The translations under genes and the position numbers were made by a program. This document shows positions 4,364-53,414 of a DNA stretch of 64,000 nucleotides, piece after piece. Each line of letters opens with the position of its first letter. The stretch's first letter is position 1. The notes beneath the pieces are model-generated. The model had not been told where the DNA came from. It did not search any database and saw nothing but the letters and a program-made list of their open reading frames with translations. This stretch comes from Malacoraja senta (Eukaryota), in contig CM075988.1 in the NCBI GenBank assembly GCA_038087875.1, positions 6,200,001 to 6,264,000 on the forward strand, in the 5' to 3' direction.

Positions 4364-5000
4364 TTCCGGAAGTGGTGGCGCTGCCTGGCAGCTGCGGCTC
4401 GCCTGCAGTCCGTCTGTTTTTTCTTTTTTTGTTGTTTTTCTTTTGTCTGTTTTAGTTAAATTTAGTTTATTAGGTTGTGTATGTGAGTGGGGGTGGGGGG
4501 GGGGTGGGGGGGTGGGAGAAACATGGTTTTAGTCTCTTCCTTCGGGGGGATGCGACTTTTTCTTGTCATGTCCCCCGTCTCCGTCTCTGTCTGTGCTGAG
4601 GCCTAATGGCGGAGCTGGCAGCCTCGGGGCTGTGGCGGCGTTCCAGCGTTCCAGCGTTCCGGCGGCGGACCCGACTTCAGAGCTGTGGCGGCGTACCGGC
4701 GCGTTCCGGCGGCGGCGGCCCGACTTCGGAGGCTCGGCCGCGAGCCCAGTGGACGACAACATCGGAGGCCTGGATCGCCTCAGCGCAGAGGGAGAACAAG
4801 GAGGGAAGAGACAAAGACTTTAAGACTTTTGCCTTCCATCACAGTGAGGAGGTGCCTGGTGAACTAACTGTGGTGGATGTTAAATTTGTGTTTATTGTGT
4901 GTTTTGTTTTTTATTATATGTATGACGGCAAGGCAACGGAATTTCGTTCAGACCGAAAGGTCTGAATGACAATAAAGGATACCTTGACTTGACTTTTGAC
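4364..5000 (+). mobile_element. CpG-rich non-autonomous retroposon with a Rex-Babar-type 3' end
   Basis: GC/CpG-rich body, GCCTTCCATCACAGTGA motif, TGACAATAAA followed by a (TTGAC)n tail. Follows a truncated Penelope-derived repeat. Confidence 0.65.
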
Positions 5001-8358: not shown

Positions 8359-9128
8359 GCTTCAATAAGGTCGCCAACTCATCCTCCTATGCTCCAAAGA
8401 AAAATGTTCCAGACTATGCAACCTCTCCCCATAACTCGAGCTGCAAGCCGAGGGAACAGCCTGGTGAATCTCTTCTGCACCCTTTCCAACATTATGACGC
8501 CCCTCCTACAGCAGGGCATCCAGAACTACAGAACGACTCTCCGACGACTTGCACAGCTGCATTATGGTTTGCTAACTCTTGTGCTCAAATACCCGTCACA
8601 ATGAAGGCAAGAGTGTCCCCACCCTGTCCACCTGACTCAACACCTTCAGGGGACCATGCACCTGTACTCCCAGATCTCTCTCTGCTCTGCACCAATTCTC
8701 CAGGGCTCTGCCAATCCTGCCCTGCTTTGACACACCAAAATGCAACATCTCACACTTTTCAGAGTTAAATTACATTTGGCATTCCTGACCCACTTTCCCA
8801 ACTGATCTAGATCCCGTTGTAAGCGTCCACGTCCTTAATCACTGTCCACTGTACCACCGGTTTTGGGGGCATCTGCAAATTTGTCAACAACGGTAAACTA
8901 CATTCTCATCCAAATCGTTAATGTAACAGCAGTGAACTCCATTAGTCACAGACCACTGATCAGAAAAAACAACCCTCTGACTGTTCCCCTCTCCCTCCTT
9001 GCATTAAATACCCATCCCATATCTTTTTGTTCTCTGCTCTCTTCCTTGCAGTCCCACACTTAACATTACACTTTTTCCCTTTCTCTCTTCCCCTCCCAGT
9101 TTGTGATGCTGGCTCAGCTAGAGTGCTG

Positions 9129-17226: not shown

Positions 17227-17417
17227 TGTTGTGAGGCAAATGAAACTTTTACGCTACTCTTAATTTATTTAAAATTTATTTAAGCTTGAAGCAACTCATT
17301 TCCGTAATACATAACTTCAAAGCGTCTGGAAAATATCGCTGTTTCCGCAGGCCTCGCCGACCCGAGACACCGCACATGCGCACACTCTGGAAAGGCCCCG
17401 CTGATGCGCACACTTCA
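17227..17417 (-). mobile_element. Mini solo LTR (191 bp, TG...CA)
   Basis: TG..CA termini, 5-bp TSD GGTAA/TGTAA, GC-rich GCGCATGTGC promoter-like half and two AATAAA near the 3' end on the minus strand. Splits a Penelope-derived repeat. Confidence 0.6.
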
Positions 17418-17592
17418 TGTAACTCAGCAGGTCAGGCAGCATCACTGGAGAACATGGACAGGTAACGTTTCAGGTCGAGTTAGGAGTCTGAAGAAGGGTT
17501 TCGACCCTGAATGTCAACTATCCATGTTCTGCAGGGATGCTGCTTGGCCTGCTTGAGCAACTCCAGCACTTTGTGTCTTTTTAGATAAGTGA

Positions 17593-17777
17593 TCTTCTTC
17601 TTCTTTTCGTGTCCATCCTGTTACAAATGTTGGCCTCGCTGTCATCGTCCGTCCTGAAAAGGACGCAGGCTTCCGTGGAAGCCATCACTTGTCGCAATAG
17701 ATGACGGTGGTAGCAGAATTAGCTCAGGATGCTTCCAGTTTCCAGCCCCGCGTCGTGGACGCTTCTGCTATGGGGCC
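17593..17777 (-). mobile_element. Ribozyme-headed non-autonomous retroposon with an RTE-type (GAA)n tail
   Basis: Perfect 10-bp TSD AGATAAGTGA (17583-17592 and 17778-17787). The 3' end is GCCAACATTTGTAACAGGATGGACACGAAAAGAAGAAGAAGA. No Pol III A/B boxes. Confidence 0.85.
17711..17777 (-). ncRNA. HDV-like (CPEB3-like) self-cleaving ribozyme
   Basis: GGCCCC-A-UAGCAGAA-GCG-UCCACGA-CGC-GGGGCU-GG-AAACUGGAAGCAUCCUGAG-CUAA-UUCUGCUA. P1 is 6 bp with a G1.U wobble, P2 8 bp, P3 3 bp, L3 7 nt, P1.1 CC/GG, followed by a P4 hairpin; catalytic C in J4/2 at 17722. Confidence 0.85.
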
Positions 17778-18034
17778 AGATAAGTGAAGAGTGATGATCT
17801 TGGCATCATGTTTGGCACAGACATTGTGGGCTGAAGGGCCTGTTCTTGTGCTGTACTGTTCTATATTCCAGGTTCCAGCACCTTTCACGGTGACATTATA
17901 CCAAGGGCAGCAGACACATGGGTGCACCACCACCTGCAGGTTCCCCCATTGAATTGCCACCATCCTTATTGTAAATACATCACCATTGGACCCCTTGTTG
18001 CATGTGGAAAACACAGCAGCCAAATGATGCTCAG

Positions 18035-24057: not shown

Positions 24058-24525
24058 TGATGCCCTATCTTGAACAATCTCTTGCTGTTGCCGATGCACA
24101 GTGGTGACGTGGACTGTTCTGCAGTTGACGAACACTCCTAGGTAATGCAGTGGGTAAAGTATTTGACACATGGCTCTAGGTAATGGCAAAGGCATTGGTA
24201 AGGTAATGGCAGAGGCAAAGGCTGTGGGTAAGCCCATGGCAACTGCATCAGGGCCAAATACATGCTCATTCCGACTGGCCTTGTCACGTACACACTTGGC
24301 ATAATCATCCATCAGAAAACAAGCCTCCACAGTCGCACGTTCATGCCATGCCAACAGCAAGGTCTGCAAATGTACCTGGACGTGGGTTGGCACGATGCCA
24401 AGGCAAAGAGACTGAAATGAGTGGAGACTTTAGCAAAACGTAAAATGCTGGAGGAACATCAGGCAGCCAGTGAGAAGGGAATGGACTGATGATGTTCCTC
24501 TGCAGATGCTGCCCAACCCGCTGAG

Positions 24526-41654: not shown

Positions 41655-42201
41655 ACCGGCCCTATTACTCAGAAGGGTAGGGAAAAGAAGAGGAGGGCAA
41701 TAGTAATAGGGGACTATGGTTAGGGGGTCGGATAGGCGATTCTGTGGACGCAGTCAGGAGACCCGGATGGTAGTGTGCCTCCCTGGTGCCAGGGTCAGGG
41801 ATGTGTCTGAACATGTCCAAGAGATCCTGAAATCGGAGGGAGAGGAGCCTGAGGTTGTGGTACATATAGGTACCAATGACATAGGCAGAAAAAGAGAAGA
41901 GGCCCTGAAAGGAGAATTTAGGGAGTTGGGAGGAGAGTTAAGGAGAACGTCCGCAAAGGTAACAATCTCAGGATTACTACCTGTGCCACGCGACAGTGAG
42001 AGCAGGAACGAAATGAGGTGGAGGATAAATGCGTGGCTGAGGAACTGGTGCAGCGAGCAGGGATTCAAATTTCTGGATCATTGGGACCTCTTTTGGGGAA
42101 GGTGTGACCTGTATAGAAAGGACGGGTTGCACTTGAACCCGAGGGGAACCAATATCCTGGCGGGGAGATTTGCAAAGGCTACTGGGGAGACTTTAAACTA
42201 G
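41655..42201 (+). pseudogene. CR1 ORF1 SGNH/GDSL esterase domain, frameshifted at the catalytic Ser
   Basis: RAIVIGD followed by a frameshift at 41715, then CLPGARV, VVHIGTND and KDGLHLN blocks. Confidence 0.9.
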
Positions 42202-42206
42202 AACGG

Positions 42207-45200
42207 TTGGGGGGAGGGACTCAAATAGAGAAAGATGGTAGAAAAGGTGGGAGGCAGGAGGCAGAGAAGGGAAGCACTCGGACCCAAAATGTAGGGGAGA
42301 AAGAAGAAAAAGATAATAAACAGAGAATAAGTGGTGGTGGGTTTCTTAAATGTGTATATTTTAATGCTAGGAGCATTGTAAGAAAGGTGGATGAGCTTAG
42401 AGTCTGGATTGACACCTGGAAGTATGATGTTGTGGTGATCAGTGAAACATGGTTGCAGGAGGGCTGTGATTGGAAACTAAATATTCCAGGATTTCGTTGC
42501 TTCAGGGGTGATAGAATTGGAGGGGCAAGAGGTGGGGGTGTTGCATTGCTTGTCAAGGAAGATATTACAGCAGTGCTTTGGCAGGATAGATTAGAGGGCT
42601 CGTCTAGGGAGGCTATTTGGGTGGAGCTGAGAAATGGGAAAGGTGTAGCAACACTTATAGGTGTGTATTATAGACCGCCAAATGGGGAGCGAGAATTGGA
42701 AGAGCAAATATGTAAGGAGATAGCAGATATTAGTAGTAAGCACAAGGTAGTGATTGTGGGAGATTTCAATTTTCCACACATAGACTGGGAAACACATTCT
42801 GTAAATGGGCTGGATGGTTTGGAGTTTGTAAAATGTGTGCAGGATAGTTTTTTGCAGCAATACATAGAGGTACCTACTAGAGAAGGGGCAGTGCTGGACC
42901 TCCTGTTAGCAAATGAGACTGGGCAGGTGGCGGAGGTATGCGTTGGGGAGCACTTCGGGTCCAGTGATCACAATACCATTAGTTTCAATATAATTATGGA
43001 GAGGGTCAGAACTGGACCTAGGGTTGAGATTTTTGATTGGAGAAAGGCTAACTTTGAGGAGATGCGAAAGGATTTAAAAGGAGTGAATTGGGACATGTTG
43101 TTTTATGGGAAGGATGTAGAAGAGAAATGGTGGACATTTAAAGGTGAAATTTTAAGAGTACAGAATCTTTATGTACCTGTTCGGTTGAAAGGAAATAGTA
43201 AAAATTGGAAAGAGCCATGGTTTTCAAGGGAAATTGGACACTTGGTTCGGAAAAAGAGAGAGATCTACAATAATTATAGGCAGCATGGAGTAAATGTGGT
43301 GCTTGAGGAGTATAAAGAATGTAAATAGAATATTAAGAAAGAAATTAGAAAAGCTAAAAGAAGATATGAGGTTGCTTTGGCAAGTAAGGTGAAAGTAAAT
43401 CCAAAGGGTTTCTACAGCTATATTAATAGCAAAAGGATAACAAGGAATAAAATTGGTCCATTAGAGAGTCAGAGTGGACAGCTATCTGCAGAGCCAAAAG
43501 AGATGGGGGAGATACTGAACAATTTCTTTTCTTCGGTATTCACCAAGGAGAAGGATATGGAATTATGTGAGGTAAGGGAAACAAGCAGAGTAGCAATGGA
43601 AACTATGAGATTCAAAGAAGAGGAGGTGCGGACACTTTTGAAAAAGATGAAAACGGATAAGTCTCCAGGTCCTGACAGGATATTCCCGAGGATATTGAGG
43701 GAAGTTAGTGTAGAAATAGCAGGGGCTATGACAGAAATATTTCAAATGTCATTGGAAACGGGAATAGTGCCGGAGGATTGGCGTACTGCGCATGTTGTTC
43801 CGTTGTTTAAAAAGGGTTCTAAGAGTAAACCTAGCAATTATAGAACTGTTACTTTGACGTCAGTGGTGGGCAAATTAATGGAAAGGATACTTAAAGATAA
43901 TATATATAAGCATCTGGATAAGATAGATAGATAGATAGATAAACATTTATTGTCACATACACCAATAGGTGCAGTGAAATTTGACTTGCCAATGCAGCAC
44001 ACAAATAAAGATTACATCCAAGAATTTAACAACATAAAAACATCCCCCCACAATGGTTCCCACTGTGCGGGAAGGCAGCAAAGTCCAGTCCCATCCCCAG
44101 TTCACCCATAGTCGGGGCAGGGTCTGATTAGGAACAGTCAACATGGATTTGTGCCTAGAAGGTCATGTTTGACTAATCTTCTAGAATTTTTCGAAGAGGT
44201 TACTAGGGAAATTGATGAGGGTAAAGCAGTGGATGTTGTCTATATGGACTTCAGTAAGGCCTTTGACAAGGTTCCTCATGGAAGGTTGGTTAAGAAGATT
44301 CAATTGTTGGGTATTAATGGTGGAGTAGCAAGATGGATTCAACAGTGGCTGAATGGGAGATGCCAGAGAGTAATGGTGGATGGCTGTTTGTCAGGTTGGA
44401 GGCCGGTGAATAGTGGGGTGCCTCAGGGGTCTGTGTTGGGTCCACTGTTGTTTGTCATGTACATCAATGATCTGGATGATGGTGTGGAAAATTGGATTAG
44501 TAAGTATGCAGATGATACTAAGATAGGTGGTGTGGTGGATAATGAAGTAGATTTTCAAAGTCTACAGAGAGATTTAGGCCATTTGGAAGAGTGGGCTGAA
44601 AGATGGCAGATGGAGTTTAATGCTGATAAATGTGAGGTACTACATCTCGGCAGGACAAATCAAAATAGGACGTACATGGTAAATGGTAGAGAATTGAGGA
44701 ATGCAGTTGAACAGAGGGATCTAGGAATAACTGTGCATAGTTCCCTGAAGGTGGAATCTCATGTAGATAGGGTGGTAAAGAAAGCTTTTGGGGTGCTGGC
44801 CTTTATAAATCAGAGCATTGAATATAGAAGTTGGGATGTAATGTTAAAATTGTACAAGGCATTGGTGAGGCCAATTCTGGAGTATGGAGTACAATTTTGG
44901 TCGCCTAATTATAGGAAGGATGTCAACAAAATAGAGAGAGTACAGTGGAGATTTATTAGAATGTTGCCTGGGTTTCAGCAACTAAGTTACAGAGAAAGGT
45001 TGAACAAGTTAGGTCTTTATTCTTTGGAGCGCAGAAGGTTAAGAGGGGACTTGATAGAGGTCTTTAAAATTATGAGCGGGTTAGACAGAGTTGACGTGGA
45101 TAAGCTTTTTCCATTGAGAGTAGGGAAGATTCAAACAAGGGGACATGACTTGAGAATTAAGGGACAGAAGTTTAGGGGTAACATTAGGGGGGACTTCTTT

Positions 45201-45365
45201 ACTCAGAGAGTGGTAGCTGTGTGGAATGAGCTTCCAGTGGAAGTTGTGGAGGCTGGTTCGATTTTATCCTTTAAAAATAGATTGGATGGGTATATGGATG
45301 GGAAAGGAATGGAGGGTTATGGTCTGAGTGCAGGTAGATGGGACAAGGGGGAAGTATTTATTTAA
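42207..45365 (+). pseudogene. CR1 ORF2 (APE endonuclease + reverse transcriptase) with one nonsense codon and one 195-bp insertion
   Basis: YFNARS, ISETW, GVYYRPP, VGDFN, SDH; KSPGPD, QHGF, YMDFSKAFD, GVPQGSVLGP, YADD. TAG at 43326-43328 and an insertion at 43923-44117. Confidence 0.95.
43923..44117 (-). mobile_element. Short Rex-tailed retroposon 3' end with an (ATCT)n tail, inside CR1 ORF2
   Basis: Minus strand carries GCCTTCCCGCACAGTG and TGACAATAAATG followed by (TATC)n. Removing it restores KHLDK|QGLIRNSQHGF. Confidence 0.8.
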
Positions 45366-52957: not shown

Positions 52958-53414
52958 GTGGGTTCCCCACACGCCTGCTGCAGATGGTGGAAAATCAGGG
53001 ACAACGTCTTCATATGTCCAGCTACACCACTGAGAATCTTCACTCTAAGTTTTACATTTATTAGTCCGAGAAATAATACAAAAAGAAAAAATATCTGAAG
53101 GGAAATTTGGTCGGAAGATTAACTCATCAATAAACACCCCAGGGATTAAATTCAGGAAACTATATCCATTGCAAAACATGACAGATCGGCTGTTGAACGG
53201 CGGGCGTGGTTCAGTGAAATGACCACATAATGCTGAGGAAAATAATAAGTTGTGCCATTGGGAATAGAGTGGGTTCGAGCACTAAGATGCAAACCGATCT
53301 TCCTTCGTAAAACCTGACTTTGATTTGGGGGCAGTCTACTTTGATGTTGGCTCAACTATTATACATGCACAGGGAGAATCTTAACATTAACATGTTCTCT
53401 GGAACTTCACAGCT

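What the first reader, a model, noticed from the sequence alone, without database searches (positions are those of the whole stretch)
17711..17771. Primary-sequence resemblance to the mammalian CPEB3 ribozyme: a possible mobile relative or ancestor
Compared with the human CPEB3 ribozyme as I recall it (A-CAGCAGAA-GCG-UUCACGU-CGC ... GCGAA-UUCUGCUG), this copy reads A-UAGCAGAA-GCG-UCCACGA-CGC ... GCUAA-UUCUGCUA. That is 19/22 and 11/13 identical, with the terminal P2 pair covarying (C-G versus U-A) and the same 1-nt J1/2 (A). P2 sequence is normally free to vary among HDV-like ribozymes, so this identity suggests common descent rather than convergence. Inference: the single-copy mammalian CPEB3 ribozyme could be a domesticated relic of a retroposon lineage that is still mobile in cartilaginous fish. 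The intact 2-bp P1.1 would predict faster cleavage than CPEB3, which has a 1-bp P1.1. The comparison sequence is from memory and needs verification.
Basis: partly seen in the sequence, partly recalled or inferred. Interest (0 to 1): 0.85.

Follow-up and report, generated by a model that had tools for sequence, protein, structure and literature searches.

The report
Shark retroposon ribozyme resembling mammalian CPEB3
The flagged stretch is the self-cutting RNA head of a small, recently mobile retroposon in a cartilaginous-fish genome, and it and its sister elements look like the first close non-mammalian relatives of the CPEB3 ribozyme, pointing to a jumping-gene origin for that mammalian RNA.

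Summary
Observation confirmed. Window 17711-17777 (minus strand) is a 67-nt HDV-like ribozyme. Its only Rfam match is the mammalian CPEB3 ribozyme (32.6 bits, cut-off 35).

- **The element.** The ribozyme is the exact 5' end of a 185-nt non-autonomous retroposon (17777 to 17593) with a 10-bp target-site duplication. The element has no Pol III head. It consists of ribozyme, RTE 5'UTR and first codons, and a 21-nt RTE tail.
- **Copy number and host.** The genome holds 1076 near-intact cores. COX1 places the genome in Chondrichthyes.
- **Relatives in the same genome.** A young 3.1-kb RTE LINE and four further short families carry still more CPEB3-like ribozymes, scoring up to 64.2 bits.
- **Relative elsewhere.** A sister RTE in a metagenome carries one too (55.6 bits).
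- **Fold.** P1 and P2 covary between families.
- **Beyond the active site.** The CPEB3 consensus P1, P2 and P4 stems each recur exactly in one or another family.

Common descent is therefore more likely than convergence, at about 0.65-0.7. It is unproven because no mammalian flanking sequence could be examined. Cleavage was not assayed. The window copy carries a private L3 change.

The parts
17778..17787 (-). 5' target-site duplication TCACTTATCT, directly upstream of G1
   Evidence: Identical 10-mer at 17583-17592. Comparable 9-13 bp duplications flank 10 other copies read by eye.
17711..17777 (-). 67-nt HDV-like (CPEB3-type) self-cleaving ribozyme. The predicted cut is 5' of G at 17777. The catalytic C is predicted at 17722.
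   Evidence: RF00622 32.6 bits, E 3.8e-7. Own model R1 63.7 bits. P1, P2 and P3 covary across families.
17614..17710 (-). Element body: CCAC after P2', then a structured stretch homologous to an RTE 5'UTR and first codons
   Evidence: About 70 nt align at roughly 80% with the 5' end of the RTE in L168, including the hairpin GCGTCCTTTTCAGGACGGACG. The fold z-score is -2.47 for the window copy and -3.15 for the intact copy L039.
17593..17613 (-). RTE-type 3' tail GACACGAAAAGAAGAAGAAGA
   Evidence: Exact 21-nt identity with the 3' end of the autonomous RTE of the same genome (L061). This is the only other similarity between the two elements besides the ribozyme core (an 18-nt match).
17583..17592 (-). 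3' target-site duplication TCACTTATCT

Best explanation
**What it is.** The stretch is the ribozyme head of a 185-nt non-autonomous, internally deleted RTE retroposon. It resembles the SIDE elements of R2 and is not a Pol III SINE.

**How it most likely works.**
1. The element has no promoter of its own and is transcribed as part of longer host or neighbouring transcripts.
2. The HDV-like ribozyme folds as a nested double pseudoknot and cuts immediately 5' of G1. This releases an RNA whose first base is the first base of the element.
3. The endonuclease/reverse transcriptase of the autonomous RTE of the same genome recognises the shared tail, GACACGA plus (GAA)n.
4. That enzyme copies the RNA into a new site by target-primed reverse transcription, leaving a 9-13 bp target-site duplication.

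**Relationship to CPEB3.** At the sequence level the ribozyme belongs to one lineage of RTE ribozymes that also contains the mammalian CPEB3 ribozyme. The most likely history is that a 5' end of such an RTE or RTE derivative landed in the CPEB3 intron of an early mammal and was kept.

**Shown here:** the anatomy, the element boundaries, the covariation, the copy number, the link to RTE, and the specific similarity to the CPEB3 model.

**Inferred:** cleavage itself, read-through transcription, which enzyme mobilises the element, and common descent with CPEB3.

My odds: about 0.93 that this is a retroposon 5'-processing ribozyme, and 0.65-0.7 for common descent with CPEB3.
For: **Element and mobility**
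- All 14 other genome copies aligned, plus the window copy, begin exactly at G1 and end in the same tail. Target-site duplications directly flank G1 in the window copy and in 10 others that I read by eye (window coordinates).
- A 31-nt core allowing up to 2 mismatches occurs 1076 times in the genome. The reversed control occurs 0 times.
- Contigs of 4 public runs from 4 coded organisms carry the element: 4603, 7253, 258 and 161 contigs laid.
- There is no tRNA-like head and no A/B box.

**RTE link**
- A 3.1-kb element carries one frame of 940 codons with Exo_endo_phos and RVT_1 domains.
- It has its own target-site duplication and the same 21-nt 3' end as the short element.
- The body of the short element aligns with the 5'UTR and first codons of another RTE, L168.

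**Fold**
- On 46 distinct sequences, 88.3% of cells pair, against 32-48% when partners are slid by 1-3 columns.
- P2 was not part of the search model. It has changes on both sides in 7 of 8 pairs. P1 has them in 5 of 6 pairs.

**CPEB3 specificity**
- RF00622 is the only Rfam family hitting these ribozymes: family A 59.7-64.2 bits, B 59.7, C 51.4, E 48.2, D 43.7, and this family 32.6-47.2.
- In one search, 39 of the 59 candidates scored pass Rfam's cut-off.
- A metagenomic RTE (L070) scores 55.6 bits. By my hand count it matches the consensus at 35 of the first 39 positions from G1.
- L070 is the sister lineage of this genome's RTE in a quick tree (SH-aLRT 99).
- An RTE from another clade (L069) has an HDV-like ribozyme that does not hit RF00622 at E <= 1.

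**Beyond the active site**
- The consensus P1 GGGGGCC occurs in L070 and in copies of families C and E.
- The consensus P2 AGCAGAA/UUCUGCU occurs in this family and in L070.
- The consensus P4 stem CAGAUUC/GAAUCUG occurs in family C.
- By hand count the consensus is 43/52 identical to family A and 46/52 to L070 over the core. A and L070 share only 38/51 with each other over a near-equivalent column set.

**Traits listed as peculiar to CPEB3** (7-nt L3 with ACGU, one G-C plus a U-U in P1.1, no J1.1/4; bioRxiv 10.1101/2022.09.22.508989, passages read) are present in families A, B, D and E.
Against: - No cleavage assay was done. No RNA holder was listed, and no read-level 5' ends are available.
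- The window copy scores below Rfam's cut-off (32.6 against 35). It has a private L3 change and an 11-nt deletion, so this copy may be dead.
- Identity at active-site positions (L3, P3, J4/2, P1.1) can arise by convergence. This has been argued for R2 ribozymes relative to HDV (PMC3774820).
- The matches in P1, P2 and P4 are spread over different families. No single family carries all three.
- Family C has only 5 decayed copies.
- The only mammalian sequence I could compare with is the Rfam consensus. No flanks and no individual species sequences were examined, so nothing ties the mammalian locus itself to an RTE.
- The identity counts against the consensus are hand counts.
- The RTE tree is the quick version. 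The careful search did not finish.
- Of the 16 metagenome loci searched against Rfam, only one distinct element (L070/L071) hits RF00622, so the CPEB3-like type is not general to RTEs.
Confidence: 0.7

Rival explanations
1. Convergence. This is a genuine RTE 5'-processing HDV-like ribozyme, but its likeness to the CPEB3 ribozyme reflects the small number of sequences that can fill the active site, plus chance matches in the helices. It does not reflect shared ancestry.
For: [quoted passage not shown]
- J4/2 of the form C-N-AA and the first U and the G of L3 also recur in the more distant RTE ribozymes L069 and L136.
- The L3 difference between this family and the CPEB3 type is a single C/U transition, and it is seen segregating within the family.
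- The helix matches are distributed over different families rather than sitting together in one.
Against: - Identity extends to helices that covary freely among these same families. Exact matches are seen for P1 (7 nt), P2 (7 nt plus its partner strand) and the P4 stem (7 bp).
- My rough estimate, an inference, is that the P4 match alone has a chance of about 5e-4 after allowing for some 8 lineages compared.
- Ribozyme similarity follows the RTE protein tree: the sister RTE L070 is CPEB3-like, and the more distant L069 is not.
- No other HDV-like Rfam family matches at E <= 1.
Confidence: 0.22
2. Reverse direction. An RTE lineage picked up its 5' ribozyme from a host transcript, a CPEB3-type intronic ribozyme or its precursor. 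The retroposon would then be the recipient and not the donor.
For: Non-LTR elements can acquire 5' sequence from co-transcripts. The CPEB3 consensus lies 'in the middle' of the family's diversity (plus my hand counts), which an ancestral host sequence would also produce.
Against: [quoted passage not shown]
- The RTE ribozymes occur in a chondrichthyan, in a metagenome contig and in a contig binned in a bacterial MAG.
- More distant RTE clades also start with HDV-like ribozymes (L069, L136), so the ribozyme looks ancestral to RTEs.
Confidence: 0.04
3. Dead relic only. The window copy is an inert fossil and the ribozyme no longer acts in this genome at all, so the family's present abundance is historical.
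For: The window copy has a private L3 change and an 11-nt deletion. Copies are 83-95% identical to the window copy. No RNA evidence exists.
Against: - Among the listed matches, 100 copies carry the 31-nt core without any mismatch.
- LINE copies are 95-98% identical to each other, and 1 of 3 examined has an unbroken 940-codon frame.
- Target-site duplications are still intact.
Confidence: 0.04

Closest known systems
Mammalian CPEB3 ribozyme (Rfam RF00622)
   Same: - The fold is the same, and the length (67 nt) matches the 67 nt reported for CPEB3 (bioRxiv 10.1101/2022.09.22.508989).
- It is the only Rfam family matched.
- The window copy shares J1/2, 7 of 8 P2 positions, P3, 5 of 7 L3 positions and P2'.
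- Sister families in the genome share the whole active site: L3 UUCACGU, GU at J1/4 and CGAA at J4/2.
- Between them, the sister families also carry the consensus P1 and P4 stems. They score 44-64 bits.
   Different: - CPEB3 is a single-copy, intronic ribozyme conserved in mammals. This one is a multi-copy head of a mobile element in a cartilaginous fish.
- The window family has a 6-bp P1 of different sequence, two G-C pairs available for P1.1, CUAA at J4/2 and a short imperfect P4.
- The window copy is below Rfam's cut-off.
HDV-like ribozymes at the 5' ends of non-LTR retrotransposons (RTE and baggins: Ruminski et al. 2011; R2: Eickbush and Eickbush 2010; L1Tc: PMC3185411)
   Same: The position is the same, at the first base of the element. 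The presumed role is the same, release from a co-transcript. In the LINE the ORF starts about 30 nt behind the ribozyme.
   Different: - Those examples come mostly from insects, trypanosomes and other invertebrates.
- I found no report of one in a cartilaginous fish. One search listed 2 of 3 matching papers and I opened neither. One is about R2 retrotransposons in animals, which is a different clade from RTE.
- I found no report of one with primary-sequence likeness to CPEB3.
- Ruminski 2011, Webb 2009 and Webb and Luptak 2011 could not be read here. What I say of them comes from reviews and from recall.
R2 SIDEs and NARTc: non-autonomous internally deleted LINE derivatives that keep the 5' ribozyme (PMC3414825, search listing and abstract only; PMC3383444, abstract)
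   Same: The architecture is the same: 5' ribozyme plus 5' leader joined to the 3' end needed by the partner's reverse transcriptase. There is no Pol III promoter.
   Different: - The parent is an RTE.
- The 5' part resembles one RTE lineage (L168-like) and the tail matches another (the resident RTE-A).
- Insertion sites are dispersed and are not rDNA.

Membership tests
HDV-like self-cleaving ribozymes (structural class) | Nested double pseudoknot: P1, P2, P3 (plus P1.1) and P4, in the canonical order | tested here: met
   All segments are present in order. Across 46 distinct sequences, 13 of 17 pairs show changes on both sides, and 88.3% of cells pair against 32-48% for slid controls. P1.1 is only sequence-compatible: CC in L3 opposite GG in J1/4.
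HDV-like self-cleaving ribozymes (structural class) | G1-U wobble at the cleavage site and a catalytic C at the start of J4/2 | tested here: met
   G 17777 lies opposite U 17744. C 17722 sits in CUAA. By my reading of the alignment printed, the C column is conserved in all full-length rows except the misaligned L069.
HDV-like self-cleaving ribozymes (structural class) | Site-specific self-cleavage | not testable with these tools
   Support is indirect only. All 15 aligned copies start at G1, with target-site duplications abutting it.
CPEB3 ribozyme family (Rfam RF00622) | Score at or above Rfam's gathering score (35 bits) | tested here: not met
   The window copy scores 32.6 bits. Other copies of the same family score 33.9-47.2, and the other families 43.7-64.2, which does pass.
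CPEB3 ribozyme family (Rfam RF00622) | Single-copy location in the second intron of CPEB3, in mammals | tested here: not met
   This is a multi-copy element (1076 cores) with target-site duplications, in a genome whose COX1 is 94-95% identical to shark clusters and 86-88% to mammalian ones. I did not test whether any copy lies in the CPEB3 gene of this genome.
CPEB3 ribozyme family (Rfam RF00622) | CPEB3-specific core: 7-nt L3 ending in ACGU, P1.1 of one G-C plus a U-U, and no J1.1/4 (traits as listed in bioRxiv 10.1101/2022.09.22.508989) | tested here: not met
   The window copy has L3 UCCACGA and GG at J1/4. The family-typical copy has UCCACGU, which keeps ACGU but offers two G-C pairs. Families A, B, D and E of the same genome do meet all three traits.
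RTE-clade non-LTR retrotransposons and their non-autonomous derivatives | Partner LINE with a single ORF encoding an AP-type endonuclease and a reverse transcriptase, about 3 kb long, with a short-repeat 3' tail and target-site duplications | tested here: met
   L061 has a 940-codon frame with Exo_endo_phos and RVT_1. Its tail is GACACGAAAA(GAA)n and it has a target-site duplication. Named relatives at 50-55% identity occur in lancelet, sea urchin, fish, lizard and insects.
RTE-clade non-LTR retrotransposons and their non-autonomous derivatives | The non-autonomous element shares the LINE's 3' end and derives from LINE sequence | tested here: met
   The 3' end is identical over 21 nt with the resident RTE. 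The element body aligns with the 5'UTR and first codons of the RTE in L168.
Classical SINE (Pol III-transcribed) | tRNA-, 7SL- or 5S-derived head with internal A and B boxes | tested here: not met
   ARAGORN finds no tRNA-like gene. A loose A/B-box pattern search finds none on either strand. No Rfam match to 7SL or 5S appears at E <= 10, but that search (window 17600-17900) omitted the last 7 bases of the 3' tail (17593-17599).

The most novel reading that the evidence does not exclude
The mammalian CPEB3 ribozyme is the domesticated 5' end of an RTE-clade retroposon. The shark RTE, its short derivatives and the sister RTE found in a metagenome would be living members of the donor lineage. They would supply the outgroups that ancestral reconstructions of the CPEB3 ribozyme have lacked.
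Probability: 0.62. Interest if true: 0.85.

Novelty: new member of a known kind. Interest (0 to 1): 0.76.

Why it matters
The CPEB3 ribozyme is one of very few self-cleaving RNAs conserved in mammals, and it has been tied to memory. Its origin is open. [quoted passage not shown] One review suggests only in general terms that such ribozymes were domesticated from mobile elements (PMC7761336, passage read).

If this RTE lineage is the donor, three things follow:
- The origin becomes directly testable by looking for RTE remnants in mammalian CPEB3 introns and for CPEB3-type heads on tetrapod RTEs.
- Ancestral-state work gains outgroups.
- A natural series of variants becomes available, with one or two P1.1 pairs and with minimal or long P4, for relating sequence to cleavage speed.

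As an element, a ribozyme-headed RTE derivative is an expected kind of thing.

Tried and rejected
- **Default Rfam scan.** The whole-window scan at gathering scores found nothing, because the copy scores below the cut-off.
- **Other copies in the window.** There is only one clean copy. Two weak model hits (53107-53169, E 0.076; 8816-8891, E 0.42) were not pursued. The 3-mismatch 16-mer at 24108 is within chance.
- **RNA evidence.** No RNA holder is listed for the stretch. The four runs laid are contigs, two of them only guessed to be RNA, so they say nothing about expression or RNA ends.
- **A supposed extra family.** The stretch combining CPEB3-type P2 and L3 (CATAGCAGAAGCGTTCACG) turned out to be ordinary copies of the window family with one C>T change.
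- **A cluster on contig C2.** The cores there are ordinary family D copies with different flanks.
- **Family C.** Only 5 copies exist, so its P4 and P1 identity rests on few decayed sequences.
- **Collection scans with a 19-mer.**
  - Viral contigs gave 0 hits.
  - Genome contigs gave 9 hits, which is about what chance predicts (my estimate is roughly 9). Eight match only around the seed, and one (L168) is a real RTE ribozyme.
- **Body of the element.** It was compared with the resident RTE and with L070. No similarity was found beyond the ribozyme and the tail.
- **Four-way junction.** The minimum-energy fold did not return one.
- **Earlier notes of this scan.** There are none on this genome, and the word hits concern phage, archaeal-virus and fungal ribozymes unrelated to this case.
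- **Papers not held.** Webb 2009, Webb and Luptak 2011 and Ruminski 2011 could not be read. They may already note sequence likeness between RTE ribozymes and CPEB3.
- **A wasted literature search.** One search was too loose and returned nothing relevant.
- **Careful tree search.** It did not finish, so the quick tree is what I report.

Full report
**Observation**

On the minus strand, window 17777-17711 reads as a complete 67-nt HDV-like ribozyme. The parts are P1 GGCCCC, J1/2 A, P2 UAGCAGAA, P3 GCG, L3 UCCACGA, P3' CGC, P1' GGGGCU, J1/4 GG, a short imperfect P4 region, J4/2 CUAA and P2' UUCUGCUA.

I used the Rfam RF00622 consensus printed by cmscan instead.
- The match is full length, 32.6 bits, E 3.8e-7 in a 301-nt search. 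No other Rfam family overlaps the ribozyme at E <= 10.
- My hand count on that printout reproduces 19/22 for the first segment. For the second segment it gives 11 of the 12 positions the model covers. The 3' partner of the terminal P2 pair lies beyond the model.
- The score is under Rfam's cut-off of 35 bits, so the default scan of the window listed nothing.

**What the element is**

A search of the window's own genome returned many copies. That genome has 1.94 Gb in 6182 contigs.
- In an alignment of the window copy with 14 others (83-95% identical), every copy begins at the same G, the predicted cleavage product's first base.
- Every copy ends in GACACGAAAAGAAGAAGAAGA or close to it.
- In the window copy and in 10 others that I read by eye, a 9-13 bp direct repeat of the flanking DNA abuts both ends.

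In the window the element runs from 17777 to 17593 (185 nt), between two copies of TCACTTATCT. Compared with its relatives, the window copy has an 11-nt deletion. It also has A instead of U as the last L3 base. Contigs of four public runs from four coded organisms show the same two differences and hold the element in large numbers.

A 31-nt core allowing up to 2 mismatches occurs 1076 times in the genome, against 0 for the reversed control. The element has no tRNA-like head and no A/B boxes, so it is not a Pol III SINE.

**The partner LINE and other families**

Searching the genome with RF00622 gave 51 matches at E <= 0.001 among only 59 candidates scored. Of these, 39 are above Rfam's cut-off and the best scores 64.2 bits. 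The fetched loci fall into several repeat families.

*Family A* is a 3.1-kb element.
- Its copies are 95-98% identical from the ribozyme's first bases onwards.
- One of three copies examined has an unbroken 940-codon frame with Exo_endo_phos and RVT_1 domains. This is an RTE-type LINE.
- It has its own target-site duplication.
- Its ORF starts about 30 nt behind the ribozyme.
- Its 3' end is identical over 21 nt to the tail of the window element.

*Families B to E* are short elements or old fragments. Family D has target-site duplications and no P4 at all.

The body of the window family does not resemble the resident RTE. It does align over about 70 nt with the 5'UTR and first codons of another RTE, found on a contig binned in a bacterial MAG (L168). 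The aligned part includes a hairpin. That RTE also begins with a ribozyme of the window type. The window element is therefore best described as an internally deleted RTE: ribozyme, leader and first codons joined to the tail.

**Fold**

I built a model from 20 ribozymes using P1 and P3 only. With it I aligned 53 matches, 46 of them distinct.
- With P2 added as a pseudoknot, 88.3% of cells pair, against 32-48% when partners are slid by 1-3 columns.
- P2, which the model did not know about, shows changes on both sides in 7 of 8 pairs. P1 shows them in 5 of 6.
- The alignment was fitted to P1 and P3, so those two helices lean towards the structure. P2 does not.

**Host**

The mitochondrial COX1 of the assembly is 95% and 94% identical to clusters represented by Squatina and Carcharhinus. 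It is 86-88% identical to mammalian clusters.

**How specific is the likeness to CPEB3**

In every Rfam search of these loci, RF00622 was the only family hitting the ribozymes:
- A 59.7 bits
- B 59.7
- C 51.4 and 47.7
- E 48.2 and 45.8
- D 43.7
- the window family 33.9-47.2

From 80 metagenome loci encoding RTE relatives, I searched 16 with room for a 5' end.
- One distinct element (L070 = L071) hit RF00622 at 55.6 bits. Its P1 is identical to the consensus. Its P2, P3, L3 and J4/2 are identical to the family-typical form of the window family (the window copy's own L3 ends in A rather than U).
- One other (L069) gave only a weak hit to a different HDV-like family.
- My own model also found HDV-like heads in L069 and L136, with other P1, P2 and P3 sequences.

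In a quick maximum-likelihood tree of 38 RTE proteins, L070 (with L118) is the sister of this genome's RTE (SH-aLRT 99). L069 sits in another clade with lizard and insect RTEs (the careful search did not finish). Ribozyme likeness thus follows the protein tree.

**Descent or convergence**

Eickbush and colleagues showed that the active sites of some R2 ribozymes are closer to HDV than to related R2 elements. They called this convergence (PMC3774820, passages read). Identity in L3, P3, J4/2 and P1.1 is therefore weak evidence.

The helices are the informative part, and they covary freely here.
- The consensus P1 (GGGGGCC) occurs in L070 and in copies of families C and E.
- The consensus P2 (AGCAGAA with UUCUGCU) occurs in the window family and in L070.
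- The consensus P4 stem (CAGAUUC with GAAUCUG) occurs in family C.

Over a 52-position core my hand counts give 43 identities between the consensus and family A, 46 for L070 and 38 for the window copy. Over a near-equivalent set of columns, A and L070 share 38 of 51, and the families share 29-45 of 51 with each other. The mammalian consensus therefore sits inside the diversity of this group and not beside it.

Traits described as peculiar to CPEB3 are present in families A, B, D and E. These are a 7-nt L3 with ACGU, a P1.1 of one G-C plus a U-U, and no J1.1/4 (bioRxiv 10.1101/2022.09.22.508989, passages read).

I put common descent at 0.65-0.7. The weaknesses are these:
- No single family carries all three helices.
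- Family C has only five decayed copies.
- The only mammalian sequence available to me is a consensus.

**What is in print**

HDV-like ribozymes at the 5' ends of RTE, R2, baggins and L1Tc elements, and in some non-autonomous derivatives, are known from reviews (PMC6765202 and PMC7761336, passages read).

[quoted passage not shown] De la Pena et al. suggest domestication of such ribozymes in general terms.

Seven searches turned up no paper that names a donor retroposon or reports these ribozymes in cartilaginous fish. The two papers listed were not opened. Three key papers are not held.

**Verdict**

As an element this is a new member of a known kind. Its value lies in making the origin of the CPEB3 ribozyme testable.

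Noticed in passing
window 17227-17418: Another interspersed repeat of about 190 nt lies just beside the element. Many genome copies are 92-95% identical to it (query positions 383-574). It was not classified.
   Followed up: no
window 17419-17576; also L018 2708-2829, L160 2774-2859, L162 2025-2142: A palindromic hairpin repeat (with core CTGGAGTAACTCAGC...GCAGCATC in its best-conserved copies) matches itself on both strands. It draws spurious sub-threshold miRNA-family hits in Rfam. It looks like a MITE-type element that is very common in this genome.
   Followed up: no
window 41710-45365 (+): Open frames of a different LINE with Exo_endo_phos and RVT_1 domains. An SGNH-like motif in the upstream frame suggests a CR1/L2-type element, but that is recalled and not tested.
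   Followed up: partly
all ribozyme families; window 17711-17707: The bases directly after P2' read ACCAC in five of the six shark ribozyme families. Family A has ACCAA, and the fetched RTEs L070 and L168 read ACCAC as well. L069 (ACCACA) and L136 (ACUAC) are close. This suggests a conserved element just behind the ribozyme whose role is unknown.
   Followed up: no
L061 3215-3235; L070 about 4440-4460; L069 about 4640-4665: Three RTE lineages end in GACACGA followed by different triplet repeats: GAA, TCA and TAA. This looks like a conserved 3' recognition motif with a lineage-specific microsatellite tail.
   Followed up: partly
L011 1592-1699 (-): Upstream of one LINE copy there are four tandem partial repeats of the first 22-30 nt of the ribozyme region. 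They may be products of template switching at the 5' end.
   Followed up: no
L168 (contig CBDHDV010000085.1): A contig binned in a bacterial MAG carries the 5' end of an animal-type RTE with an HDV-like ribozyme. This is probably eukaryotic DNA mis-binned into the MAG.
   Followed up: partly
G000 contigs C2915 and C6182: The mitochondrial genome is present both as a single contig and as a concatemer. COX1 recurs every 16,723 bases in the concatemer.
   Followed up: no
window 8816-8891 (+): A weak hit of my ribozyme model (10.2 bits, E 0.42) retains AAGCGTCCACGTC and CTGTC. It may be a badly decayed copy.
   Followed up: no
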